A stretch of 39,764 nt of DNA from a virus (Duplodnaviria > Caudoviricetes), in the IMG/VR virus record IMGVR_UViG_3300047275_000136, positions 1 through 39,764 of that record, one strand, 5' to 3'. The notes under the pieces are model-generated. The model ran no database searches. It was given only the letters and a program-made list of their open reading frames with translations, and was not told the DNA's origin. This document shows positions 8,686-25,782 of the stretch, piece after piece. The position numbers and the translations under genes were made by a program. Positions within the stretch are counted from its first letter, which is position 1. Each line of letters begins with the position of its first letter.

Positions 8686-10282
8686 CTTGTGTGACCTCTG
8701 ATAACCTTCCTGTTGTGTGGTTGTAGTAGACGCTACAGGCTGGACCTGTCGTGCCTGAGAAGCGGTTCTTGAGTACCCTAATCCTGGTGATATTGCGTTC
8801 ACGTTCATCATCATGCTGTGCATTCCTTTCCATACCGATAACCATGTCAGACAATTGTGCAATGCTTCCAGAGCCTCTAAGCTGTCCTAGTGATGTTGCT
8901 GCTCCTTCTTCATGTCCTTTACCATCAGGTCTCTTTAGGTGGCTGACAATCAGTAAGGATATACCAGTCTCTTGAACCAGCATCCTTAGTTTTGTCATGA
9001 TCTCGTCTAAGGCTTTCCTCTCATCGCCAACATCACCAGCACTGACGATGATGCTAATATGATCCAGCACCACAAAGCTACATCCCAATCCTTTTGACAT
9101 GAATCTGACTCTTGATAAAATATTATCAATTGACGTACTACCAAAATGATCAAAAAGATAAACCCTGTTAGTGCCAAGAGTGTGCTCAAAGGCATCTCTA
9201 AACTCCTCATCTGTATATGCTGTATCAGGTAAATGTAAAGGTTTGTTAGCGTGTATGGACATCAAGCCTTTAGCGGTGCGGACAGTAGACTCCTCGAGGA
9301 ACATCAAACCAATGTTGTCGTCTGTCTTGCACAGAATATGATACACGATCTCACGCAACACCTGTGATTTACCCAGTCCAGATCCAGCAGTGAAGGTAAC
9401 TAACTCACCCTTCCTAATGCCATAGGTAAGCTTGTTAAGACCATCAAAGGGGTAGTTACATGAAGACTTAATAGCAGGTGTATTGATGTCTTCCCACAGC
9501 TTAGAGCCATTGACAATGCCATCAGGTACGTAGGTCTCAGCGGCAAACCAATCTTGTATGTATTCCTTTATTGCTCCTTCTTTAAGATAATCGTTAGCAT
9601 CCTTGAATGGTGCTCTGTGCTTGACAACCTTAGCCTTAGCACCGAATAGATCAGCTACTTGCGTAGCAGCTTTCTTCCCAGGTTCATCAGCATCAAAAGA
9701 GATAACAATGGTTTCAAAAGAATCAAGATATTCATAGTTGGCTTTACAGTCCTTTAGTGCTGCCTGTGCTCCATTGCGGATAGATACTGAAGGATACTTC
9801 ATACCATTCATTTGATAGACAGCAATGGCATCAAATTCACCCTCAGTGATGGTAATGCTCTTACCTCCTTTAGCAAATAAGTGTTGTCCGAACAATGTAT
9901 TAGCTTTACTCCAGTCTCCTTTAATGGTGCAGTCAGTCTTCGTAGCTTCATGCCTTACCTTGTATGCTGCTACCTTTCCATCAGTATCATGGTAGGGAAA
10001 TACTACCTCGTAATCATCAGTAAGCACTACGTTGTAAGCCTTCAGTGCATCAGCACTAAGGTTTCTCACTGGTATCGAACGATATTGGCCTTGAATCATA
10101 GGTACAACTTTAGGCTTAGATGTTGTGTTTTGTACGAAGTTATCAACATTTGTAGACAACTTCTTATTTGTACCGCAACTAAAGCAGTGACTCCATGTCT
10201 CTCCTTTGTCATTCTCTGACACTGATAAGGCATCAGAGCTACCGCAATCATCACAACCCTGGTGCGTGGCTAAGTATGTCAT
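8672..10282 (-). CDS. Primase-helicase (T7 gp4-like)
   Basis: CDDC...CFSC Zn finger, TOPRIM ITEGEFDA and FDAD, Walker A AGSGLGKS, LDHI, SHL, LRGSG, KNRFSG. Confidence 0.96.
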   Translation of the reverse strand: MTYLATHQGCDDCGSSDALSVSENDKGETWSHCFSCGTNKKLSTNVDNFVQNTTSKPKVVPMIQGQYRSIPVRNLSADALKAYNVVLTDDYEVVFPYHDTDGKVAAYKVRHEATKTDCTIKGDWSKANTLFGQHLFAKGGKSITITEGEFDAIAVYQMNGMKYPSVSIRNGAQAALKDCKANYEYLDSFETIVISFDADEPGKKAATQVADLFGAKAKVVKHRAPFKDANDYLKEGAIKEYIQDWFAAETYVPDGIVNGSKLWEDINTPAIKSSCNYPFDGLNKLTYGIRKGELVTFTAGSGLGKSQVLREIVYHILCKTDDNIGLMFLEESTVRTAKGLMSIHANKPLHLPDTAYTDEEFRDAFEHTLGTNRVYLFDHFGSTSIDNILSRVRFMSKGLGCSFVVLDHISIIVSAGDVGDERKALDEIMTKLRMLVQETGISLLIVSHLKRPDGKGHEEGAATSLGQLRGSGSIAQLSDMVIGMERNAQHDDERERNITRIRVLKNRFSGTTGPACSVYYNHTTGRLSEVTQDEDL

Positions 10283-10482
10283 TGCTCACCCCTTGCTTTC
10301 AGCATGGCATCGGCCATCAAATACGACGCCTTTGCGGTGACGTGTGCGGTATGCTCATCGTGCGCTTTTCCGCAACTAAACAGACCTTGCATCGCCTTGG
10401 CTGCAAAGTAATCACGCAGGGTCATTCCAGTTTCATTAGGCCACTGCGTCCTTGGAAACGCTGGTCCACCATCGTTAATCAT
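10279..10482 (-). CDS. Conserved phage hypothetical protein (GGPAFP...GMTLRDYFAAKAMQG family)
   Basis: Recognisable small phage protein motif; ATGA overlap with the primase. Confidence 0.8.
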   Translation of the reverse strand: MINDGGPAFPRTQWPNETGMTLRDYFAAKAMQGLFSCGKAHDEHTAHVTAKASYLMADAMLKARGEQ

Positions 10483-10492
10483 TGCTCACCCC
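10279..10492. repeat. 14-bp direct repeats TCATTGCTCACCCC flanking the 67-aa gene
   Basis: Exact copies at 10279-10292 and 10479-10492; on the minus strand GGGGTGAGCAATGA is an RBS plus ATGA junction. Confidence 0.85.
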
Positions 10493-10561
10493 ACACAAGC
10501 ACATCCTGCTTTGATATAACTCCAGCGCCTCAAGCGCCAGTTGCATAGCTTCTCTGCTCAT
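10475..10561 (-). pseudogene. Truncated remnant MSREAMQLALEALELYQSRMCLCGVSND (28 aa), paralogous to the N-terminus of 10904..11302
   Basis: 10521-10561 matches 11262-11302 at 37/41 nt. Confidence 0.6.
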
Positions 10562-10907
10562 TGTTTTTATCCTTTAATTTAGCTTCGATGGAACGGGCAA
10601 AACGCATCAGCATCCCTTCGCTTCCGTCAATGTCACGCCAGATGATGCTGATCTCCTCATCAGTCAGCCCAACCCATTGCTTTGGGGTTACTTTTTCGTG
10701 GTATGTCTGGTCATTCATTACTGCCATAGCAAGTGCTTGGCACGTTTTGCAGGGAGTTGGGTCTTTGTAAAGCGCAGTCCATCGGTCAGGGTGACGGCCA
10801 ATATTTGCGGGTATGTGCGTGATGACATTATTCTCAATAAAGTTGTGCATCCACGCCACTGGCTGACCGTCATCTGCTGGTGTCTTTGCGTTTTTGTTCT
10901 CGCTCAT
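10530..10907 (-). CDS. Hypothetical modular phage protein (PVAW / WVGLTDEEI / FARSIEAKLK blocks)
   Basis: ORF with ATGA coupling to the upstream gene. Confidence 0.75.
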   Translation of the reverse strand: MSENKNAKTPADDGQPVAWMHNFIENNVITHIPANIGRHPDRWTALYKDPTPCKTCQALAMAVMNDQTYHEKVTPKQWVGLTDEEISIIWRDIDGSEGMLMRFARSIEAKLKDKNNEQRSYATGA

Positions 10908-11302
10908 GTGTTTCCTTTCGGTGAAATGTCATCACGTCTTTTCACCCGCATCTGTGCCTGAAGATTAGGGTCATCAACCACCTCATAAACTTCTGAATCT
11001 TCAGATTCATATCTGACTACCCTGAAATCAACTTCATGAATAAGCTCGCAATCACAGCATTGCATGAGATAACCCTGTGGCTTAGGGCATACCCAATCTG
11101 ACCAACCGTCTTCTAATGCTGGCTGCGGTTCGCACTGACCCCATACACCAACCTCACCAACCCTTGCTAAATCTATCTCCAATGCTTGGCGCAAGGCGGT
11201 GATTACGTCGTCAACGTCAATTGTCACGCACTCTGTTTCGGTGTCTATGCCATCAAGTTGTTCCAACGCCTCTAGCGCCATCTGCATAGCTTCTCTGCTC
11301 AT
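10904..11302 (-). CDS. Hypothetical protein with Cys-rich CCDC..H domain
   Basis: GAGG RBS, ATGA coupling, WSDW...MQCCDCELIHEVDFRV. Confidence 0.75.
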   Translation of the reverse strand: MSREAMQMALEALEQLDGIDTETECVTIDVDDVITALRQALEIDLARVGEVGVWGQCEPQPALEDGWSDWVCPKPQGYLMQCCDCELIHEVDFRVVRYESEDSEVYEVVDDPNLQAQMRVKRRDDISPKGNT

Positions 11303-11586
11303 GTTGTCCTCAGATTAAAAGGGTTATGCCAACAGATACCAGTGTTGTCCCTGGTGTTATATCCACCTAGTGAGTAAGATATCAAGTATTGATGATCATC
11401 CTTCCTAATATCCCTATCAACAGTGTAGTTATCAACTAACTTTGACATAGAGTCTCTGATCTGCTTAGATGTCTTGTTAGGGAATGCCTCTAGGAGGTCT
11501 TCTAAGGTGGCATGGCGGCCATGATTCTCTAGGTAGGCTACATAAGGGTTAACCTTGCGTTTGCGTGGCTGTATAAGCTTTCTCAT
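11299..11586 (-). CDS. Hypothetical protein, possible winged-helix DNA-binding protein
   Basis: Basic N-terminus, ATLEDLLEAF...KQIRDSMSKLV helix pattern; the fold is inferred. Confidence 0.55.
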   Translation of the reverse strand: MRKLIQPRKRKVNPYVAYLENHGRHATLEDLLEAFPNKTSKQIRDSMSKLVDNYTVDRDIRKDDHQYLISYSLGGYNTRDNTGICWHNPFNLRTT

Positions 11587-11783
11587 ACGTTGAACCCTTT
11601 AGCATTCAAAGCCTTAGTTAACTGACGCATCATAAAGTAAAAACCATAGTCCGAACATAAGCGAACAAATCCACTCAGTACGGCTTCAATCTTAACATCT
11701 TCATGGTAATCATCTAACTCTGCCTGTGTTGGCTCTGAAGGCTTCATAGCCTCTTCAGGTAGAAAATCATCATCAGGGTACAT
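11583..11783 (-). CDS. Hypothetical protein
   Basis: AAGGA RBS; ATGA coupling downstream. Confidence 0.7.
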   Translation of the reverse strand: MYPDDDFLPEEAMKPSEPTQAELDDYHEDVKIEAVLSGFVRLCSDYGFYFMMRQLTKALNAKGFNV

Positions 11784-11812
11784 TGTATTATCCTTAAAGG
11801 GTACATTGTTTA

Positions 11813-11905
11813 CTATATAGGCTATGTATACATAGTAAGTACATAGAATATTATTCTAAGTATATATACTAAGTATATAGTACATAGTATACATAGCCTA
11901 TATAG
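11813..11905. repeat. AT-rich nested inverted repeat (candidate replication origin or hairpin)
   Basis: Perfect 19-bp arms CTATATAGGCTATGTATAC (11813-11831) and GTATACATAGCCTATATAG (11887-11905), with internal palindromes. Confidence 0.8.
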
Positions 11906-11909
11906 ATTT

Positions 11910-11938
11910 AGGGTATCAGAGAAAACTAAAGTTGTCAA
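11910..11938 (-). promoter_or_regulatory. Sigma70-type promoter for replication genes
   Basis: TTGACA-17 nt-TACCCT on the minus strand. Confidence 0.65.
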
Positions 11939-11941
11939 TAC

Positions 11942-12139
11942 TTAGTCCTCTGCCTTCTTACGTTCGCTAACAATCTCATCATCGTCGTGCATCAGCGATA
12001 CATTGCCTACAGCGCAGATTTCATCTCGGACATACTTAAAACAATCGTTACATAAGTCTAAGTATTGTCTTGTTCGAACACTACGCCTAGAGGCTTCATA
12101 GTCGCTAAGCACTTCATTGCAGGATAAACATCTCATCAT
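11942..12139 (-). CDS. Small Zn-finger protein
   Basis: CLSC...DLCNDC; GGGGTG RBS. Confidence 0.75.
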   Translation of the reverse strand: MMRCLSCNEVLSDYEASRRSVRTRQYLDLCNDCFKYVRDEICAVGNVSLMHDDDEIVSERKKAED

Positions 12140-12684
12140 ACACCCCATTGGTTAGCCATAGCATCAGCGATGCCTTGGTAGGTTTTACTTCTAATCTTCC
12201 ATCTGTCTGCTGTTGGGGGTAGTTTCCATATGCGTTGATCTCTACCATCAACAACATCAGTGGGTACAAGTTTATCCAGGTTTTTAAGCCATAGACAAGT
12301 CTTTTTTGTCTCGCCATGCCCAAACATCCAAGGTTGAATGCACTGATCAGGCTTTCGTATGCGAGAACTAATGATGCTAACTGGATTCTCAAGGCATATA
12401 CGCTCTATAGGCGCATCTAAGAGCCTTCTAACAAACTCTAAAGCTTCTGCCTGCTCTTGCTGCTTATCTTTAAACCAACGAGCACCAGAGACCGCCAAAT
12501 GGGTACATGGAGGATGAGCAATCATCAAATCCCATCCATCATTGATAACATCGAATACATCACCCTGGTAGTGTGGACCATCAACATCAGTAGGTAATAG
12601 ATCGCATGACATAGCATCATGTCCTAGCTTTCTGAATGCGTCTCTGACAGTGCCCGAGTATTCGCAAGCGATCAACACTCTCAT
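12136..12684 (-). CDS. DNA cytosine-5 methyltransferase-like protein (short phage type)
   Basis: VLIACEYSG (motif I variant), AHPPC (motif IV), LENPV (motif VI). Confidence 0.75.
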   Translation of the reverse strand: MRVLIACEYSGTVRDAFRKLGHDAMSCDLLPTDVDGPHYQGDVFDVINDGWDLMIAHPPCTHLAVSGARWFKDKQQEQAEALEFVRRLLDAPIERICLENPVSIISSRIRKPDQCIQPWMFGHGETKKTCLWLKNLDKLVPTDVVDGRDQRIWKLPPTADRWKIRSKTYQGIADAMANQWGV

Positions 12685-12854
12685 TTTCCATCATCCTCCA
12701 TTCTATCTAACAACATCATCAGTTTAGGGTATAGATCTTCCTTTACATCTTCAGCATGACTTACCTCCTCCCATTGACCCCATGATGCAGCAACACTGGA
12801 GTCAATCATCGCCTCAATCAAGGCTAACATTATCTGTACTGTCTCTTTAGTCAT
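12681..12854 (-). CDS. Hypothetical protein (57 aa, MTKETVQIMLALIEAMID...)
   Basis: Read manually. GAGGG RBS; ATGA overlap with the MTase. Confidence 0.65.
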   Translation of the reverse strand: MTKETVQIMLALIEAMIDSSVAASWGQWEEVSHAEDVKEDLYPKLMMLLDRMEDDGK

Positions 12855-12871
12855 AAAATACCCTCTAGAAT

Positions 12872-12904
12872 CGATTAAAACAGGTCTACAAGCGATTAAA
12901 ACAG
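12872..12904. repeat. Tandem 12-bp direct repeat CGATTAAAACAG, 21-bp period
   Basis: Copies at 12872-12883 and 12893-12904 in an intergenic gap. Confidence 0.7.
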
Positions 12905-12920
12905 TCTTGGTGCTATCACC

Positions 12921-13121
12921 CTACATTAAGGCCTCTTCGATGCCTTGTAGAGCCTCTAATCGCTTTTGCTTTTCTGTGGTTTTCTTCAGTGCTTTAGGAC
13001 TAACCCAGGTATAGGACGGGAAAGGCCATCGAGGATCGCCAGGATAGCGTATACAGACTAAGCCATCAGCATCTGGACCTTGGACAATCTCACATGGTTG
13101 ATCATTGAATGTTAAGCTCAT
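12921..13121 (-). CDS. Hypothetical early protein
   Basis: ORF track; ATGA coupling. Confidence 0.65.
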   Translation of the reverse strand: MSLTFNDQPCEIVQGPDADGLVCIRYPGDPRWPFPSYTWVSPKALKKTTEKQKRLEALQGIEEALM

Positions 13122-13348
13122 TTGGTAATCCTGTATTGTTTCCTAAATTCTATGGTGTCTAAGTCTGTAAAGTTTTCCCTATAGTGCTCTGCTAAGTCAA
13201 CATCAGATAGGTTATTGAATCCACCTTCAGATAAGAAGCGAACAATTTCATCATAGACCTCTGGGAACTTAACAGAGGCAACAGCATAGTCTAATTCTCT
13301 CTTAGTACAATCATAGAGTATGTCTTCTTTCTTCAGTATGGTTGTCAT
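13118..13348 (-). CDS. Hypothetical early protein
   Basis: Start trimmed to MTTILKKED after AGGAG. Confidence 0.65.
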   Translation of the reverse strand: MTTILKKEDILYDCTKRELDYAVASVKFPEVYDEIVRFLSEGGFNNLSDVDLAEHYRENFTDLDTIEFRKQYRITK

Positions 13349-13352
13349 AGGA

Positions 13353-13523
13353 TTAATCTCCTGATAGGTCAACAATGGGGTTAATGTCATATTCAGTTAT
13401 TTCTAAGTCTTCAACATACTCATACACCTTAGCCACTGTAGCGAACCTTTCAAGGTGCGTTAAACCAGAGTACTCAGGGTATCTATAGGTTAACAAGTAA
13501 CCGACAATCTTAAATTCCATCAT
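13353..13523 (-). CDS. Hypothetical early protein (56 aa, MMEFKIVGYLLTYRYPEYSG...)
   Basis: Read manually; GGGGTG RBS. Confidence 0.6.
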   Translation of the reverse strand: MMEFKIVGYLLTYRYPEYSGLTHLERFATVAKVYEYVEDLEITEYDINPIVDLSGD

Positions 13524-13680
13524 ACACCCCATTGATCAAACTATAGTTATAACCCAAAGAATCGTTGTATGGGTAAGTCATTACCTTTGTTTGTGCCTCG
13601 GTTAATGTCCTGGCGAGTACTGGTATGTTAAAAACTTGCTTCGACACATTACATACTATCTTTACATAAAATGTTTTCAT
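13510..13680 (-). CDS. Hypothetical early protein (56 aa, MKTFYVKIVCNVSKQVF...)
   Basis: Read manually; AAGGG RBS. Confidence 0.55.
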   Translation of the reverse strand: MKTFYVKIVCNVSKQVFNIPVLARTLTEAQTKVMTYPYNDSLGYNYSLINGVYDGI

Positions 13681-13689
13681 GTTAAACCC

Positions 13690-13776
13690 TTATAGTGAAA
13701 AGAAAATCATTGCAGCATACAGTGCACCAAACAATGCACCACCTAAGACTAAGATTACATCATTAGACTTTGACAT
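13690..13776 (-). CDS. Small single-TM peptide (MSKSNDVILVLGGALFGALYAAMIFFSL)
   Basis: Read manually; begins 2 nt after the GP88-like stop; 22-residue hydrophobic stretch. Confidence 0.55.
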   Translation of the reverse strand: MSKSNDVILVLGGALFGALYAAMIFFSL

Positions 13777-13778
13777 GA

Positions 13779-14426
13779 TTAAGCCTTTGCAAGTTTGAGT
13801 CTGATAACTTTAGACATCTTTTGGCCATGAGCAGCATAACCGATAACTGGGATTGATTTGTCCCAGCACTTGCGACAACCTTTGCACTTACCGCCTTGCT
13901 GATACGCTGGACATACGCTTATGCTAGCATCATTGTAGGATTCAGCAATAGTGCTAGACCATGGTGCGTCAAGTACTTCGCCAATAACGGAATCGGACGA
14001 ACGACGAACGACTACGTTAGGTAACGCATCCATTTGTTCCAAGATTGCTTGATACTTAGGAAACTTGTGCATTCTAGTCGGTAACCAGTGTTTACACCAT
14101 GGTGTACGCTTCATGACTTCGAACATCTTTTCTGCAAGTTTGATCGTGTACATGTCACCAGAGTCAAACCAACGAAAGTATCGATCCGAGTCTAAAGCTT
14201 GAACCATGTCATCAACCCAATCATCACGCTGCCAGTCTTGTTTGTTATGCTCTCTTGGTGCTTTTACGTTAGGATACAGATAATTGCCAGTAGTGGCATA
14301 GCAACCAGCGCAGGCATCAACTAATTCGCCAGTGTAAACGTTGATGCTACCCGAACAAGTATCTAAGGCCTGTAGACTCCATGACCGTATACCGTCAAGC
14401 TTGCTAGTGATTGATAATTTGAGCAT
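13779..14426 (-). CDS. GP88-like Cys-rich (radical-SAM-like) phage protein
   Basis: TC...CAGCYA, RWFDSGD, HWLPTR, CPA...CKGCRKCW...H; start MLKLS after AAGGA. Confidence 0.7.
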   Translation of the reverse strand: MLKLSITSKLDGIRSWSLQALDTCSGSINVYTGELVDACAGCYATTGNYLYPNVKAPREHNKQDWQRDDWVDDMVQALDSDRYFRWFDSGDMYTIKLAEKMFEVMKRTPWCKHWLPTRMHKFPKYQAILEQMDALPNVVVRRSSDSVIGEVLDAPWSSTIAESYNDASISVCPAYQQGGKCKGCRKCWDKSIPVIGYAAHGQKMSKVIRLKLAKA

Positions 14427-14445
14427 GGTTCTATCCTTATAGAAT

Positions 14446-14500
14446 GGACTCATCAGTATAGTCTGAAACTATAGACCCTACACTTGGCAGGGTTTCGTCC
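14446..14500 (-). ncRNA. Type II hammerhead ribozyme
   Basis: Minus-strand RNA: GGAC-GAAA-CCCUGC-caagu-GUAGGG-UC^-UAUAGU-uucag-ACUAUA-CUGAUGA-GUCC. The core is complete, all three stems pair, and the cleavage triplet is GUC. Confidence 0.93.
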
Positions 14501-14505
14501 TAGGT

Positions 14506-14844
14506 TTAAATAGTGGCCGCAATTGAATCGATGAACGCTTCAGCGCTTGCGATTTCCTTTTGAATCTGTTCAACGTAGTAATTTGCCTCGAAGTCTGTTA
14601 CCCGTTGTTTTTGCACTATCTCCATGAGTTTTTCCGTGTGATAATTGTTCAATGACCCGTAGGCTAACAATGCGCCAGACTTGGCGAAGCCACTATCAAC
14701 CATGGCACTAACCTTATCATCTAAAACCCTACGCTTTGCCATGATCCCGTTAGGATTGAAATAGTGGAAACGAACTTTGTCGATGTTAGACCAGGAATCA
14801 AGACACTTAGTTGCTGTGCTTGTTACTACGTTGAAATCTGCCAT
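14506..14844 (-). CDS. First early gene, hypothetical protein (112 aa)
   Basis: GGAG RBS, ATG at 14844, just downstream of a sigma70 promoter. Confidence 0.7.
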   Translation of the reverse strand: MADFNVVTSTATKCLDSWSNIDKVRFHYFNPNGIMAKRRVLDDKVSAMVDSGFAKSGALLAYGSLNNYHTEKLMEIVQKQRVTDFEANYYVEQIQKEIASAEAFIDSIAATI

Positions 14845-14878
14845 TTGTTTTCTCCAGGTTGTTTTGTTTCGATTGCTA

Positions 14879-14907
14879 ATCCTACATATTTGATTTCGTG
14901 CCGTCAA
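14879..14907 (-). promoter_or_regulatory. Early sigma70-type promoter
   Basis: TTGACG-17 nt-TAGGAT. Confidence 0.75.
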
Positions 14908-14998
14908 CCTATTTCGGCCTTGTTTTGCTTCGAATTGACGAACGGTAGACAATCCAGGATGAGCGGTAGTGTTGTTCGAACACAACAGTTCAGTCTAT

Positions 14999-15014
14999 TG
15001 TTTCACGTGGAACC
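14999..15014. promoter_or_regulatory. parS-like ParB binding site
   Basis: TGTTTCACGTGGAACC versus the chromosomal parS consensus TGTTTCACGTG(A/G)AACA; one terminal mismatch. Confidence 0.7.
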
Positions 15015-15115
15015 AGTGCAGATCGGTGCAAGCTTTCTAGGCTTTGAAGTCTGTTCAGGTATCTTTAGAGGGTGCTACGCTGATACATCCTCCCTACTGT
15101 GCAGACTGTGCAGTC

Positions 15116-15135
15116 TACTGTACAGATATACAGTC
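15116..15135. promoter_or_regulatory. LexA SOS box (beta/gamma-proteobacterial type)
   Basis: TACTGTACAGATATACAGTC contains CTGT-N8-ACAG with consensus-like flanks; CAGATATACAGT is duplicated in tandem. Confidence 0.7.
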
Positions 15136-15177
15136 AGATATACAGTGCAGCCTTAATAGTAATGCATTATCATTAGC

Positions 15178-15194
15178 ATTTCACATTATGAAAT
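15178..15194. promoter_or_regulatory. Palindromic operator, IclR-family-like
   Basis: ATTTCA-CATTA-TGAAAT; the family assignment is tentative. Confidence 0.45.
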
Positions 15195-15197
15195 CTT

Positions 15198-15218
15198 AAT
15201 TGACTATGATTCTCAATT
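15198..15218. promoter_or_regulatory. Fur-box-like site
   Basis: AATTGACTATGATTCTCAATT; the minus strand reads TGAGAAT-C-ATAGTCA (7-1-7). A second Fur-like near-palindrome lies at 15154-15175. Confidence 0.45.
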
Positions 15219-15349
15219 GTACATTGCAGTGCAGCATAGGGGGAGGGGTCTGGTTAGTTATGGAAATGTTGTGGTGCTACCTAGCCTTAAAAAAAAGCTA
15301 AAATGGAAGTCTCTAAAGCCTAAGTAAACTATCTAATAAAAGGTAATAG

Positions 15350-15362
15350 AATCAATAGCTTA
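15350..15362 (+). promoter_or_regulatory. IHF consensus site
   Basis: AATCAATAGCTTA matches WATCAANNNNTTR. Confidence 0.5.
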
Positions 15363-15470
15363 AATAGAAAAGCTCTGCGGAGCCTATGACACCATGTAAA
15401 TGGAGTCCCGCTATAGCCTCTAAAGACTGTGCAATCTGTGCTGGATATGTTGTAATAACCCTACAGTAGT

Positions 15471-15511
15471 AGTCAAGGGTCTTTACAGCAATATCATTTG
15501 TATGCTACAAT
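15471..15511 (+). promoter_or_regulatory. Late promoter 1 (upstream of terS)
   Basis: AGTCAAGnnTCTTTACAGCAATAT motif; TTTACA-18 nt-TACAAT with extended -10 TGn. Confidence 0.65.
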
Positions 15512-15678
15512 AAGTCTACTATGTAGAAACGATGAACAGACGATGTACTGACAATAAATAAAAACTTAAATTTTATATACTACATACAGACTTCATACTG
15601 ACTACATAGAAGAGATACATAAAATTATATACACCCTAAAGTCCTGCTTTCAGCAGAGAAACTATATAGAGGGATCTG

Positions 15679-16173
15679 ATGTCAGAAATTAAAATTACTT
15701 CTCCTAATGAGGATTGTTCGCTACCTTCATCAGTCAGCCAGGATGTCTTGGCAGTCAATGAAGAGAAGAGTGTGCCGACAAAAAAGAGGAAAAGAGGTCG
15801 TCCTAAGAAGGAAGAAGTACAAAAGTATATAAAAAGAGAGAAGAGAGGAAGACCACCAGGAGAAGCAGCAAGGATTAAAGAGTTCACTGCTTCGCTGCTG
15901 TTAACGCATTCGAATGCGATTATCAGAAAGATAGTACATAAAGCATTAGATGATAATGATAAGGATCAGATTGCAGCACTAAAGATGTGTATGGATCGGA
16001 TGCTTCCAGTATCTTATTTTGAGGATAAAGGACAATCATCAGGTGCTAAAGCAATCACCATCAACATCACTGGTGTACAACAAGAGTCTCCAGTGGAGAT
16101 GATTCAGCATGAACCAGTCGATGTAGAGACTACGTTGATCGATTACGAGGAAGAAGATGGATCTACAAGTTAA
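15679..16173 (+). CDS. terS: Terminase small subunit (putative)
   Basis: Immediately upstream of terL; RGRP motifs, AALKMCMDRMLP and ITINITG patterns. Confidence 0.7.
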   Translation: MSEIKITSPNEDCSLPSSVSQDVLAVNEEKSVPTKKRKRGRPKKEEVQKYIKREKRGRPPGEAARIKEFTASLLLTHSNAIIRKIVHKALDDNDKDQIAALKMCMDRMLPVSYFEDKGQSSGAKAITINITGVQQESPVEMIQHEPVDVETTLIDYEEEDGSTS

Positions 16174-24899: not shown

Positions 24900-25220
24900 A
24901 TGGCACACTTTGCCAAGATTGAGAATAACGTAGTTACTCAGGTTATCGTTGTAGACAACAAGGATACCGCTGATGCTAGTGGTGTTGAGAAAGAGCATAT
25001 CGGTGCTGCTTTCTGTGAACGTCTACTAGGAGGTACTTGGAAGCAAACCAGCTATAACGGTAACTTCCGTAAGAACTATGCTGGTATTGGTTATAGCTTT
25101 GATGAGGCTAGGAATGCCTTTATCCCACCAAAGCCTACCGAAGATGCTGTATTAGATGAAGATACTTGCCAGTGGATTGTTAGCATGGCTGCAGACTCTA
25201 TAGGTGCTGATTCTGTCTAA
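24900..25220 (+). CDS. Conserved phage tail-associated hypothetical protein
   Basis: MAHFAKI...WKQTSYN.NFRKNYAGIGY...AFIPPKP family pattern. Confidence 0.8.
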   Translation: MAHFAKIENNVVTQVIVVDNKDTADASGVEKEHIGAAFCERLLGGTWKQTSYNGNFRKNYAGIGYSFDEARNAFIPPKPTEDAVLDEDTCQWIVSMAADSIGADSV

Positions 25221-25782
25221 GGAAATCAGCAATCCTTTGATGTTCGTCAGCAGTACCATCATTCTTAATACGATTAGCTCTCCATGACATGATCATGACA
25301 TTGCCTTTGATGTAGCCTTTAGTTGTATCTAAACGATCAAAGCTAACAGAGTTCTCTTGTCTTTCTGAAGCATAGTAATCAAGTTCAATACCTAGTATAG
25401 GACAATGTGTAGGGAAGAAAAGATCATCAAAGGTAATGTCCCATTCATGTTTGTAGTTAGATGCTTTCTTACGTCTGAACTTCTCTCGTTGTACTTGATA
25501 AGAATCTAGTTCACGTACTGAAGCCTCCTCAGGGTAATGACCCCACTTCTTCTTGTAATTAGTACGTAAGAGCTGTCTACGCTGTGTCCGAGGACGTTCT
25601 TCATCAGTGATACGACCATCTTTGACTAGTTTATCAATCAATTGATGGATACGTTGTCTGCTGACATTACCAAGCTCTTTACGTATCTGTTCAGTGGTCT
25701 TACCTATTTGAACTAAGTTTTGTACTAAGTCTAGTCTTTCTTTAGCAGTTAAGTCTGTTTTAGCAAAGTGATGTAAAGGCAT
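25198..25782 (-). CDS. HNH-type endonuclease with N-terminal HTH (free-standing homing endonuclease-like)
   Basis: HTH-like TTEQIRKELGNVSRQRIHQ; CPILG, SFDRLD..KGYIKGNV...ANRIK. Confidence 0.75.
   Translation of the reverse strand: MPLHHFAKTDLTAKERLDLVQNLVQIGKTTEQIRKELGNVSRQRIHQLIDKLVKDGRITDEERPRTQRRQLLRTNYKKKWGHYPEEASVRELDSYQVQREKFRRKKASNYKHEWDITFDDLFFPTHCPILGIELDYYASERQENSVSFDRLDTTKGYIKGNVMIMSWRANRIKNDGTADEHQRIADFLRQNQHL

What the first reader, a model, noticed from the sequence alone, without database searches (positions are those of the whole stretch)
14446..14500. Type II hammerhead ribozyme splitting the early transcript
Seen: the minus (sense) strand reads GGAC GAAA CCCUGC caagu GUAGGG UC^ UAUAGU uucag ACUAUA CUGAUGA GUCC. 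It has an intact CUGAUGA/GAAA core, closed stems I and III, an open 4-bp stem II and a GUC triplet; the predicted cut is between 14474 and 14473. It fills the gap between the first early gene (stop 14506) and the GP88-like gene (ATG 14426, 47 nt after the cut). Known: hammerheads leave a 2',3'-cyclic phosphate and a 5'-OH, and they have been reported in phage intergenic regions, mostly without an assigned function. Inference: this is host-independent mRNA processing analogous to T7 RNase III sites. It would give the downstream early mRNA a 5'-OH end starting in a hairpin (a poor RNase E substrate) and uncouple its stability from gene 1.
Basis: partly seen in the sequence, partly recalled or inferred. 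Interest (0 to 1): 0.88.

Follow-up and report, generated by a model that had tools for sequence, protein, structure and literature searches.

The report
Hammerhead guarding phage core early genes
A complete self-cutting RNA motif (type II hammerhead), a kind already known between phage genes, sits in this phage and its relatives at the border between a swappable set of small genes and the conserved early genes, where it likely trims the message so that the conserved genes get nearly the same front end whatever lies upstream.

Summary
Observation confirmed. Window 14500-14446 (minus strand) is a type II hammerhead with all core nucleotides; the predicted cut is 14474/14473, 47 nt before the gp88-like ATG. 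It is the only match to the core pattern in the window (0 of 100 shuffles). All 28 clade copies found by their stems alone keep the core. It belongs to a common phage subfamily: 126 of 131 IMG/VR core matches have both closed stems, and 122 of these carry the U1.7/A pair of the known stem I-II contact, with no pseudoknot excess. Rfam misses it.
Phage mRNA processing by such hammerheads was proposed in 2011, and this scan has noted it on other DNA (66 notes matched my words). What is added here: among 49 distinct clade arrays it is absent when gp88 follows the promoter directly (0 of 14), present in 29 of 35 arrays with accessory genes, and always at the junction before the core gene. Four accessory genes carry it when last and a GAAA hairpin or remnant when internal. 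It likely works as a natural RiboJ-like insulator and crossover point. Cleavage and function are untested. New member of a known kind; interest 0.3.

The parts
14446..14500 (-). Type II hammerhead ribozyme: open 4-bp stem II, closed stems III and I, canonical core, GUC triplet; predicted cut 14474/14473
   Evidence: conservation
14501..14501 (-). A directly 5' of stem II; predicted partner of U1.7 in the stem I-II tertiary contact
   Evidence: A in 23 of 23 distinct clade copies and 123 of 126 subfamily members; coupled with U1.7
14467..14467 (-). U1.7, first loop I nucleotide; predicted Hoogsteen partner of A14501
   Evidence: U in 23 of 23 clade copies and 122 of 126 subfamily members; known contact described in PMC11875169
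14457..14473 (-). Stem I hairpin that would form the very 5' end of the downstream cleavage product
   Evidence: fold of 14473-14410
14429..14444 (-). Weak hairpin (-2.8 kcal/mol) with the Shine-Dalgarno-like AAGGA in its loop; this tail is in only 2 of 29 clade arrays
14506..14844 (-). Accessory gene 1, 112 aa, no Pfam or PHROG family; one of several interchangeable genes in this slot
13779..14426 (-). gp88-like gene (215 aa; Pfam PF17338, E 3.3e-27; phrog_1392), first conserved early gene, downstream of the cut
14879..14907 (-). Sigma-70-like promoter (TTGACG-17-TAGGAT), predicted start of the early transcript
   Evidence: a consensus match; the scan found 7 sites against 12.1 in shuffles, so not significant alone; promoter-like sites at the same place in many relatives

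Best explanation
The element is a type II hammerhead motif with a complete catalytic core that sits at the border between a swappable block of small accessory genes and the conserved early genes; it likely cuts the early transcript during transcription and would give the gp88 message a fixed, hairpin-capped 5'-OH end 47-52 nt before its start codon whatever genes lie upstream. Shown: the motif, its conservation, its position rule, and that it travels with the downstream gene. From established hammerhead chemistry: cleavage after GUC leaving a 2',3'-cyclic phosphate and a 5'-OH. Inferred: activity in vivo; a U1.7-A14501 contact in place of a pseudoknot; a benefit through steadier level or half-life of the core message (RiboJ-like insulation). 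The junction probably also serves as a crossover point for cassette exchange.
For: Core intact in 28 of 28 clade copies found by stems alone (29 matches; 1 was an unrelated match in distant locus L038). Among 23 distinct copies, variation is confined to N7 (U/C), N17 (C/A/U), loops, G-U-tolerant stem III sites, one stem II pair and the tail base, while 162 of 215 third codon positions of gp88 vary among 16 carriers. Stem II pair A-U swaps to U-A in 6 of 23 copies. Subfamily: 126 of 131 distinct IMG/VR core matches have stems I and III of 3 bp or more, against 1.6 with shuffled middles. A before stem II and U1.7, neither fixed by the search pattern, co-occur in 122 of 126, and the three lacking the A also lack U1.7 (Fisher p 1.2e-5). 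109 of 126 have an SD and start codon within 60 nt downstream, against 20 on the opposite strand. Position rule in 49 distinct arrays: 0 of 14 promoter-first, 29 of 35 with accessory genes (tallied; test). In the 6 multi-gene arrays with a hammerhead it lies directly before gp88 or the alternative MSIA-type gene. Cut-to-start distance is 47-52 nt in all 29. RiboJ precedent: PMC6206723, PMC7536230.
Against: No cleavage or expression data. Six of 35 accessory-gene arrays lack an intact hammerhead (L010, L016, L017, L030, L031, L184), so it is dispensable. Four of 23 copies break one stem II pair. Covariation within the clade is not above the shuffle control (65 of 500). The full fold has predicted probability about 0.45 while the RNA emerges but 0.01-0.06 once 30-50 nt more are made, because core bases can pair with the first codons; across 13 relatives it is 0.016-0.63 (no tertiary contacts modelled). 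The position rule could come from simple linkage, and the arrays are related (at least 8 changes on the gp88 tree, clustered), so the Fisher p-values are overstated. The host and its RNases are unknown.
Confidence: 0.6

Rival explanations
1. The ribozyme is active but mainly a recombination landmark or passenger: the shared junction sequence lets accessory genes be swapped, as PeSL cassettes do in T4-type phages, and cutting is tolerated rather than useful.
For: Hairpin and hammerhead junctions share the same 5' motif and A/C-rich 3' leader. Mismatched stem II halves occur in 4 of 6 multi-gene arrays and 0 of 23 single-gene arrays, as expected from crossovers inside the element. Truncated remnants are in L023, L192 and L030. 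Precedent: PMC2839356 abstract.
Against: A pure homology block needs no catalytic core, yet the core is intact in 28 of 28 stem-anchored copies while N7, N17 and loops vary, and the U1.7/A pair is kept.
Confidence: 0.17
2. Cleavage gates translation of gp88: it frees or buries the ribosome-binding site, or a ribosome on gene 1 or gp88 decides whether the ribozyme folds.
For: The stop codon lies 5 nt before stem II; in the window core bases can pair with the first codons of gp88 and the SD sits in a hairpin loop.
Against: The predicted cost of opening the ribosome footprint rises after cleavage in the window (6.1 to 7.5 kcal/mol) and changes in both directions in 13 relatives. The window's tail is in only 2 of 29 arrays.
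Confidence: 0.1
3. Cleavage lowers rather than steadies expression: the 5'-OH product or the upstream fragment is sent to decay, damping accessory or core genes behind a strong promoter.
For: glmS ribozyme cleavage is followed by degradation by cellular RNases (PMC6765202); the host is unknown. The alternative junction hairpin is followed by a short U run, like a weak terminator.
Against: The 3' product starts with a paired stem and no free 5' nucleotides. In E. coli a hammerhead plus hairpin raised mRNA about twofold (PMC6206723).
Confidence: 0.1
4. It is an inactive or chance look-alike.
For: No Rfam hit; no predicted pseudoknot; competing folds; 4 of 18 consensus hammerheads tested by Perreault et al. 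were inactive.
Against: 0 of 100 shuffles give the pattern; core and contact positions are conserved.
Confidence: 0.03

Closest known systems
Type II hammerhead ribozymes of bacteria and prophages (Perreault et al. 2011, PMC3088659; Rfam RF02276)
   Same: Same topology and core; intergenic in a phage transcript; processing into shorter mRNAs already proposed there; a U...A stem I-II contact is drawn for type II in their Fig. S5 (text of the file).
   Different: 4-bp stem II and no predicted pseudoknot, whereas the RF02276 model has a 2-bp stem II; the window copy is not detected, and hits in 20 subfamily loci reached 26.7-32 bits against a cut-off of 37. One copy per array here, not a cluster flanking each gene.
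RiboJ synthetic insulator (sTRSV hammerhead plus hairpin; PMC6206723, PMC7536230)
   Same: Self-cleavage would remove variable upstream RNA and leave a uniform hairpin 5' end before the ribosome-binding site.
   Different: Natural and type II; it would remove whole accessory genes, not a promoter leader; its own stem I is the 5' hairpin; the effect is untested.
T7 early RNase III sites (PMC4858673)
   Same: Co-transcriptional cutting of a host-polymerase early transcript.
   Different: T7 uses a host enzyme at five sites and leaves 5' phosphates (recalled); here one RNA-catalysed site would leave a 5'-OH.
PeSL regulatory cassettes of T4-type phages (PMC2839356)
   Same: Short repeated junction elements in a hypervariable region that mediate gene shuffling.
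   Different: PeSLs are promoter plus terminator; here the junction is a hammerhead or a short GAAA hairpin, behind a single predicted promoter.

Membership tests
Hammerhead ribozyme class | Core C3 U4 G5 A6 N7 G8 A9, G12 A13 A14, A15.1-U16.1 and H17 (numbering recalled) | tested here: met
   All present; kept in 28 of 28 stem-anchored clade copies
Hammerhead ribozyme class | Three stems around the core, with G10.1-C11.1 closing stem II | tested here: met
   98.9% of cells paired in 16 distinct rows
Hammerhead ribozyme class | Site-specific self-cleavage giving 2',3'-cyclic phosphate and 5'-OH | not testable with these tools
   needs an in vitro assay or end-specific sequencing
Type II hammerhead (topology) | Stems I and III closed by loops, stem II open | tested here: met
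   definition in PMC3088659
Type II hammerhead, pseudoknot consensus | Pseudoknot of 4 or more pairs between loop I and the 3' tail | tested here: not met
   Longest Watson-Crick run in the window is 2; subfamily 6 of 126 with 4 or more against 9.1 with permuted tails. Not required for type II
Fast natural hammerheads | Stem I-II tertiary contact, U1.7 with the A 5' of stem II | tested here: inconclusive
   Both bases present and coupled in the subfamily; the geometry cannot be tested here
Rfam RF02276 Hammerhead_II | Score at or above the gathering threshold of 37 bits | tested here: not met
   No hit in the window; subfamily hits reach 26.7-32 bits
RiboJ-like insulator (works-like claim) | Uniform downstream 5' end regardless of upstream sequence | tested here: inconclusive
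   Predicted ends share the stem I hairpin and lie 47-52 nt before the start in 29 of 29 arrays; cleavage not shown
RiboJ-like insulator (works-like claim) | Downstream expression buffered against upstream context | not testable with these tools
   needs reporters

The most novel reading that the evidence does not exclude
The hammerhead is a naturally evolved insulator: it is the 5' leader of the core early operon, lets the phage swap, add and lose accessory genes behind its strongest promoter without changing the core message, and doubles as the crossover site for those swaps, with a GAAA hairpin (possibly a collapsed hammerhead) as the non-cutting spacer between accessory genes.
Probability: 0.3. 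Interest if true: 0.62.

Novelty: new member of a known kind. Interest (0 to 1): 0.3.

Why it matters
The role of phage self-cleaving ribozymes is still called unresolved in reviews (PMC6155905; PMC6765202). This clade offers a natural experiment: the same core gene with no upstream gene, with several different upstream genes, and with a hammerhead, a hairpin or nothing at the junction, so insulation, stabilisation and recombination can be separated with simple reporters. The subfamily (about 320 stored IMG/VR stretches for one exact pattern, the tool's estimate) falls below the Rfam cut-off where tested, so annotation misses it.

Tried and rejected
Rfam: no hit in the window; no ribozyme family in 11 related loci. 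Pseudoknot: no excess. Cleavage-gated translation: no consistent predicted effect. The AUG inside the core is in frame with gp88 in the window, but only in 2 of 29 arrays, so incidental. Stop codons as the cause of the A before stem II: rejected, 92 of 95 members without a stop triplet there still have A. More hammerheads in the window: one weak type III descriptor hit only. Distant gp88 phages (11 loci at 53-70% identity, two of them GenBank records, plus 4 closer loci): no hammerhead by descriptor. Cultured phages: no meaningful blastn match to the element; polymerase under 49% identical to Pelagibacter and Roseobacter phages and no close terminase, so no family or host is assigned. Sequencing runs: no RNA holder listed; contigs of four runs say nothing on RNA ends. 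Two motif searches in Dataset S1 of Perreault et al. found nothing, which is uninformative for a gapped alignment. Repeat search of 10000-16000 showed no repeated junction motif in the window. Paper searches for a natural phage insulator (0 papers) and for phage hammerheads with RNase III and polycistronic (2 unrelated papers) found no such description; the library lacks most subscription papers.

Full report
Observation. It has the full hammerhead core (numbering recalled), a 4-bp open stem II, a 6-bp stem III plus A15.1-U16.1, and a 6-bp stem I with a possible seventh U-G pair. The cut would fall between C17 (14474) and 14473, 47 nt before the ATG at 14426. The 55-mer folds into this junction (z -2.0). 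The core pattern occurs once in the window and in 0 of 100 shuffles. Rfam does not detect it.

Setting. The window looks like a podophage genome with two arms: replication genes (primase-helicase, DNA polymerase, ribonucleotide reductase) on the minus strand and terminase, portal and capsid on the plus strand; no RNA polymerase family was among the 56 ORFs scanned. No close cultured relative was found, so host and family are unknown. A sigma-70-like site at 14907-14879 (not significant alone) precedes a 112-aa orphan gene (14844-14506), the hammerhead, and the gp88-like gene (PF17338).

Conservation in the clade. gp88 searches gave 41 viral and 23 metagenome loci; a pattern for the clade's 5' half gave 24 loci, 5 of them on new contigs, and all 24 had the CUGANGA half intact. 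Searching by stems alone gave 29 matches: 28 with an intact core and one unrelated match in a distant locus. In 23 distinct copies the variable sites are N7, N17, loops, G-U-tolerant stem III sites, one stem II pair and the first tail base; the pattern used there fixed most core letters, so one search is the unbiased test. The stem II pair is A-U in 13, U-A in 6 and mismatched in 4. In the same genomes 162 of 215 third codon positions of gp88 vary among 16 full-length carriers. Covariation in a 20-row alignment was not above its shuffle control (65 of 500).

Subfamily. The exact core-plus-stem-II pattern returned 137 IMG/VR loci from a partial scan (about 320 stretches estimated), with 131 distinct matches. 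126 have stems I and III of at least 3 bp, against a mean of 1.6 with shuffled middles. Stem I pairs 4 and 5, beyond the 3-bp filter, are paired in 126 of 126 and pair 6 in 123, with four or more pair types each. An A precedes stem II in 123 and U1.7 is present in 122; the three lacking the A also lack U1.7. This matches the U1.7-A Hoogsteen contact described for other hammerheads (PMC11875169, passages), which Perreault et al. also drew for type II (Fig. S5 text). No pseudoknot excess was seen. 108 of 126 follow a stop codon within 20 nt and 109 precede an SD and start codon. I gave Rfam 20 of the 137 loci: 9 matches to RF02276 in 7 loci, all below its cut-off.

Position rule. I parsed the stretch between promoter and gp88 in 60 close loci including the window, dropped 11 with an identical 250-nt upstream sequence, and kept 49 (with corrections; tallied by hand and tested). 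Distant loci (L035-L038, L195-L199, L230, L231) and L200, which lacks the gene start, were left out. In 14 arrays gp88 follows the promoter directly and none has a hammerhead. In 35 there are one to three accessory genes and 29 have it; the six exceptions carry a hairpin, a half element or nothing. At least six unrelated genes precede it. In three loci it precedes a different gene (MSIA-type) that replaces gp88, and in L019 a 45-aa ORF that starts like that gene. In the six multi-gene arrays with a hammerhead it is never at an earlier junction; these carry a GGGC-GAAA-GCCC hairpin, a degenerate form of it, or a truncated 5' remnant. The window's own gene 1 is followed by the hairpin in L179, where it is internal, and by the hammerhead where it is last; three other accessory genes behave alike (L010, L023, L192 against L007, L027, L179). 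So the ribozyme belongs with the downstream gene. The label needs at least 8 changes on a 41-row gp88 tree but is clustered, so the arrays are not independent and the p-values are too small. Mismatched stem II halves occur in 4 of 6 multi-gene and 0 of 23 single-gene arrays, which suggests crossovers inside the element.

Mechanism. Most likely the ribozyme folds as it leaves the polymerase (predicted probability about 0.45 up to 20 nt past stem II, falling to 0.01-0.06 when the first codons appear), cuts after GUC, and leaves a downstream message that starts with the stem I hairpin, 47-52 nt before the start codon in all 29 arrays. That is how RiboJ works in synthetic circuits (PMC6206723 and PMC7536230, passages). 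That a 5'-OH and a terminal hairpin slow RNase E is recalled knowledge for E. coli; the direction could reverse in another host, as for glmS. Activity, the tertiary contact and any benefit are inferred. Folding gave no consistent change in ribosome access after cleavage.

Comparison and novelty. Type II hammerheads between phage genes, and the idea that they cut transcripts into shorter mRNAs, date from Perreault et al. 2011 (PMC3088659: sections 6 and 11 part 1, passages, supplement S5 text). Reviews still call the role open (PMC6155905, PMC6765202; passages). T7 processing is from PMC4858673 (passage) and PeSLs from PMC2839356 (abstract). I did not see the figures or the other supplements of the 2011 paper, which may already hold members of this subfamily. 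My searches showed no paper on a last-junction or insulator pattern, judged from listings. Earlier notes of this scan report many such hammerheads on other DNA, one upstream of gp88 swapping with a long hairpin; these are unchecked notes and I do not count them as support.

Verdict. Real and almost certainly a ribozyme (about 0.95); a new member of a known kind. The position rule is the one useful addition, because it makes the function directly testable, but linkage alone could explain it. Interest 0.3.

Noticed in passing
window 15000-15013, about 95 nt upstream of the early promoter: A parS-like palindrome (consensus recalled), the only match in the window (0.10 expected at one mismatch), sits at the same place in most close relatives, with variants that keep the palindrome. 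It may load host ParB on the phage DNA; phi29 is a precedent (PMC2731898, passages).
   Followed up: partly
L017:2959-2974, L010, L019, L023, L179; degenerate in L005, L016, L184, L218: A GGGC-GAAA-GCCC hairpin with a short U run fills accessory-gene junctions (4 exact IMG/VR matches, all in this clade). It shares the hammerhead's 5' motif and looks like stem II closed by the core GAAA: a collapsed hammerhead, a weak terminator or an end-protecting stem.
   Followed up: partly
L207, L211, L218: gp88 is replaced by an unrelated 91-aa gene (starts MSIAIH) behind the same hammerhead and before the same next gene.
   Followed up: partly
L003, L004, L006, L011, L180, L185: A different promoter block without the parS-like site precedes the 82-aa accessory gene, so the promoter itself is a swappable module.
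   Followed up: no
window 11813-11905: A perfect 19-bp inverted repeat around an AT-rich 55-nt stretch in the gap between early and middle genes; possibly an origin or regulatory site.
   Followed up: no
window 25198-25782 (minus strand): An endonuclease VII/HNH-like gene lies against the direction of the structural genes; probably a homing endonuclease.
   Followed up: no
window 10530-11302: The 132-aa gene start (MSREAMQ) is repeated at the end of the next ORF (41 nt, 90% identical), a sign of a past duplication or cassette crossover.
   Followed up: no
L067-L069, L050-L051, L161: Unrelated phages carry three or more subfamily hammerheads within a few kilobases, unlike the single copy per array in this clade.
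   Followed up: no
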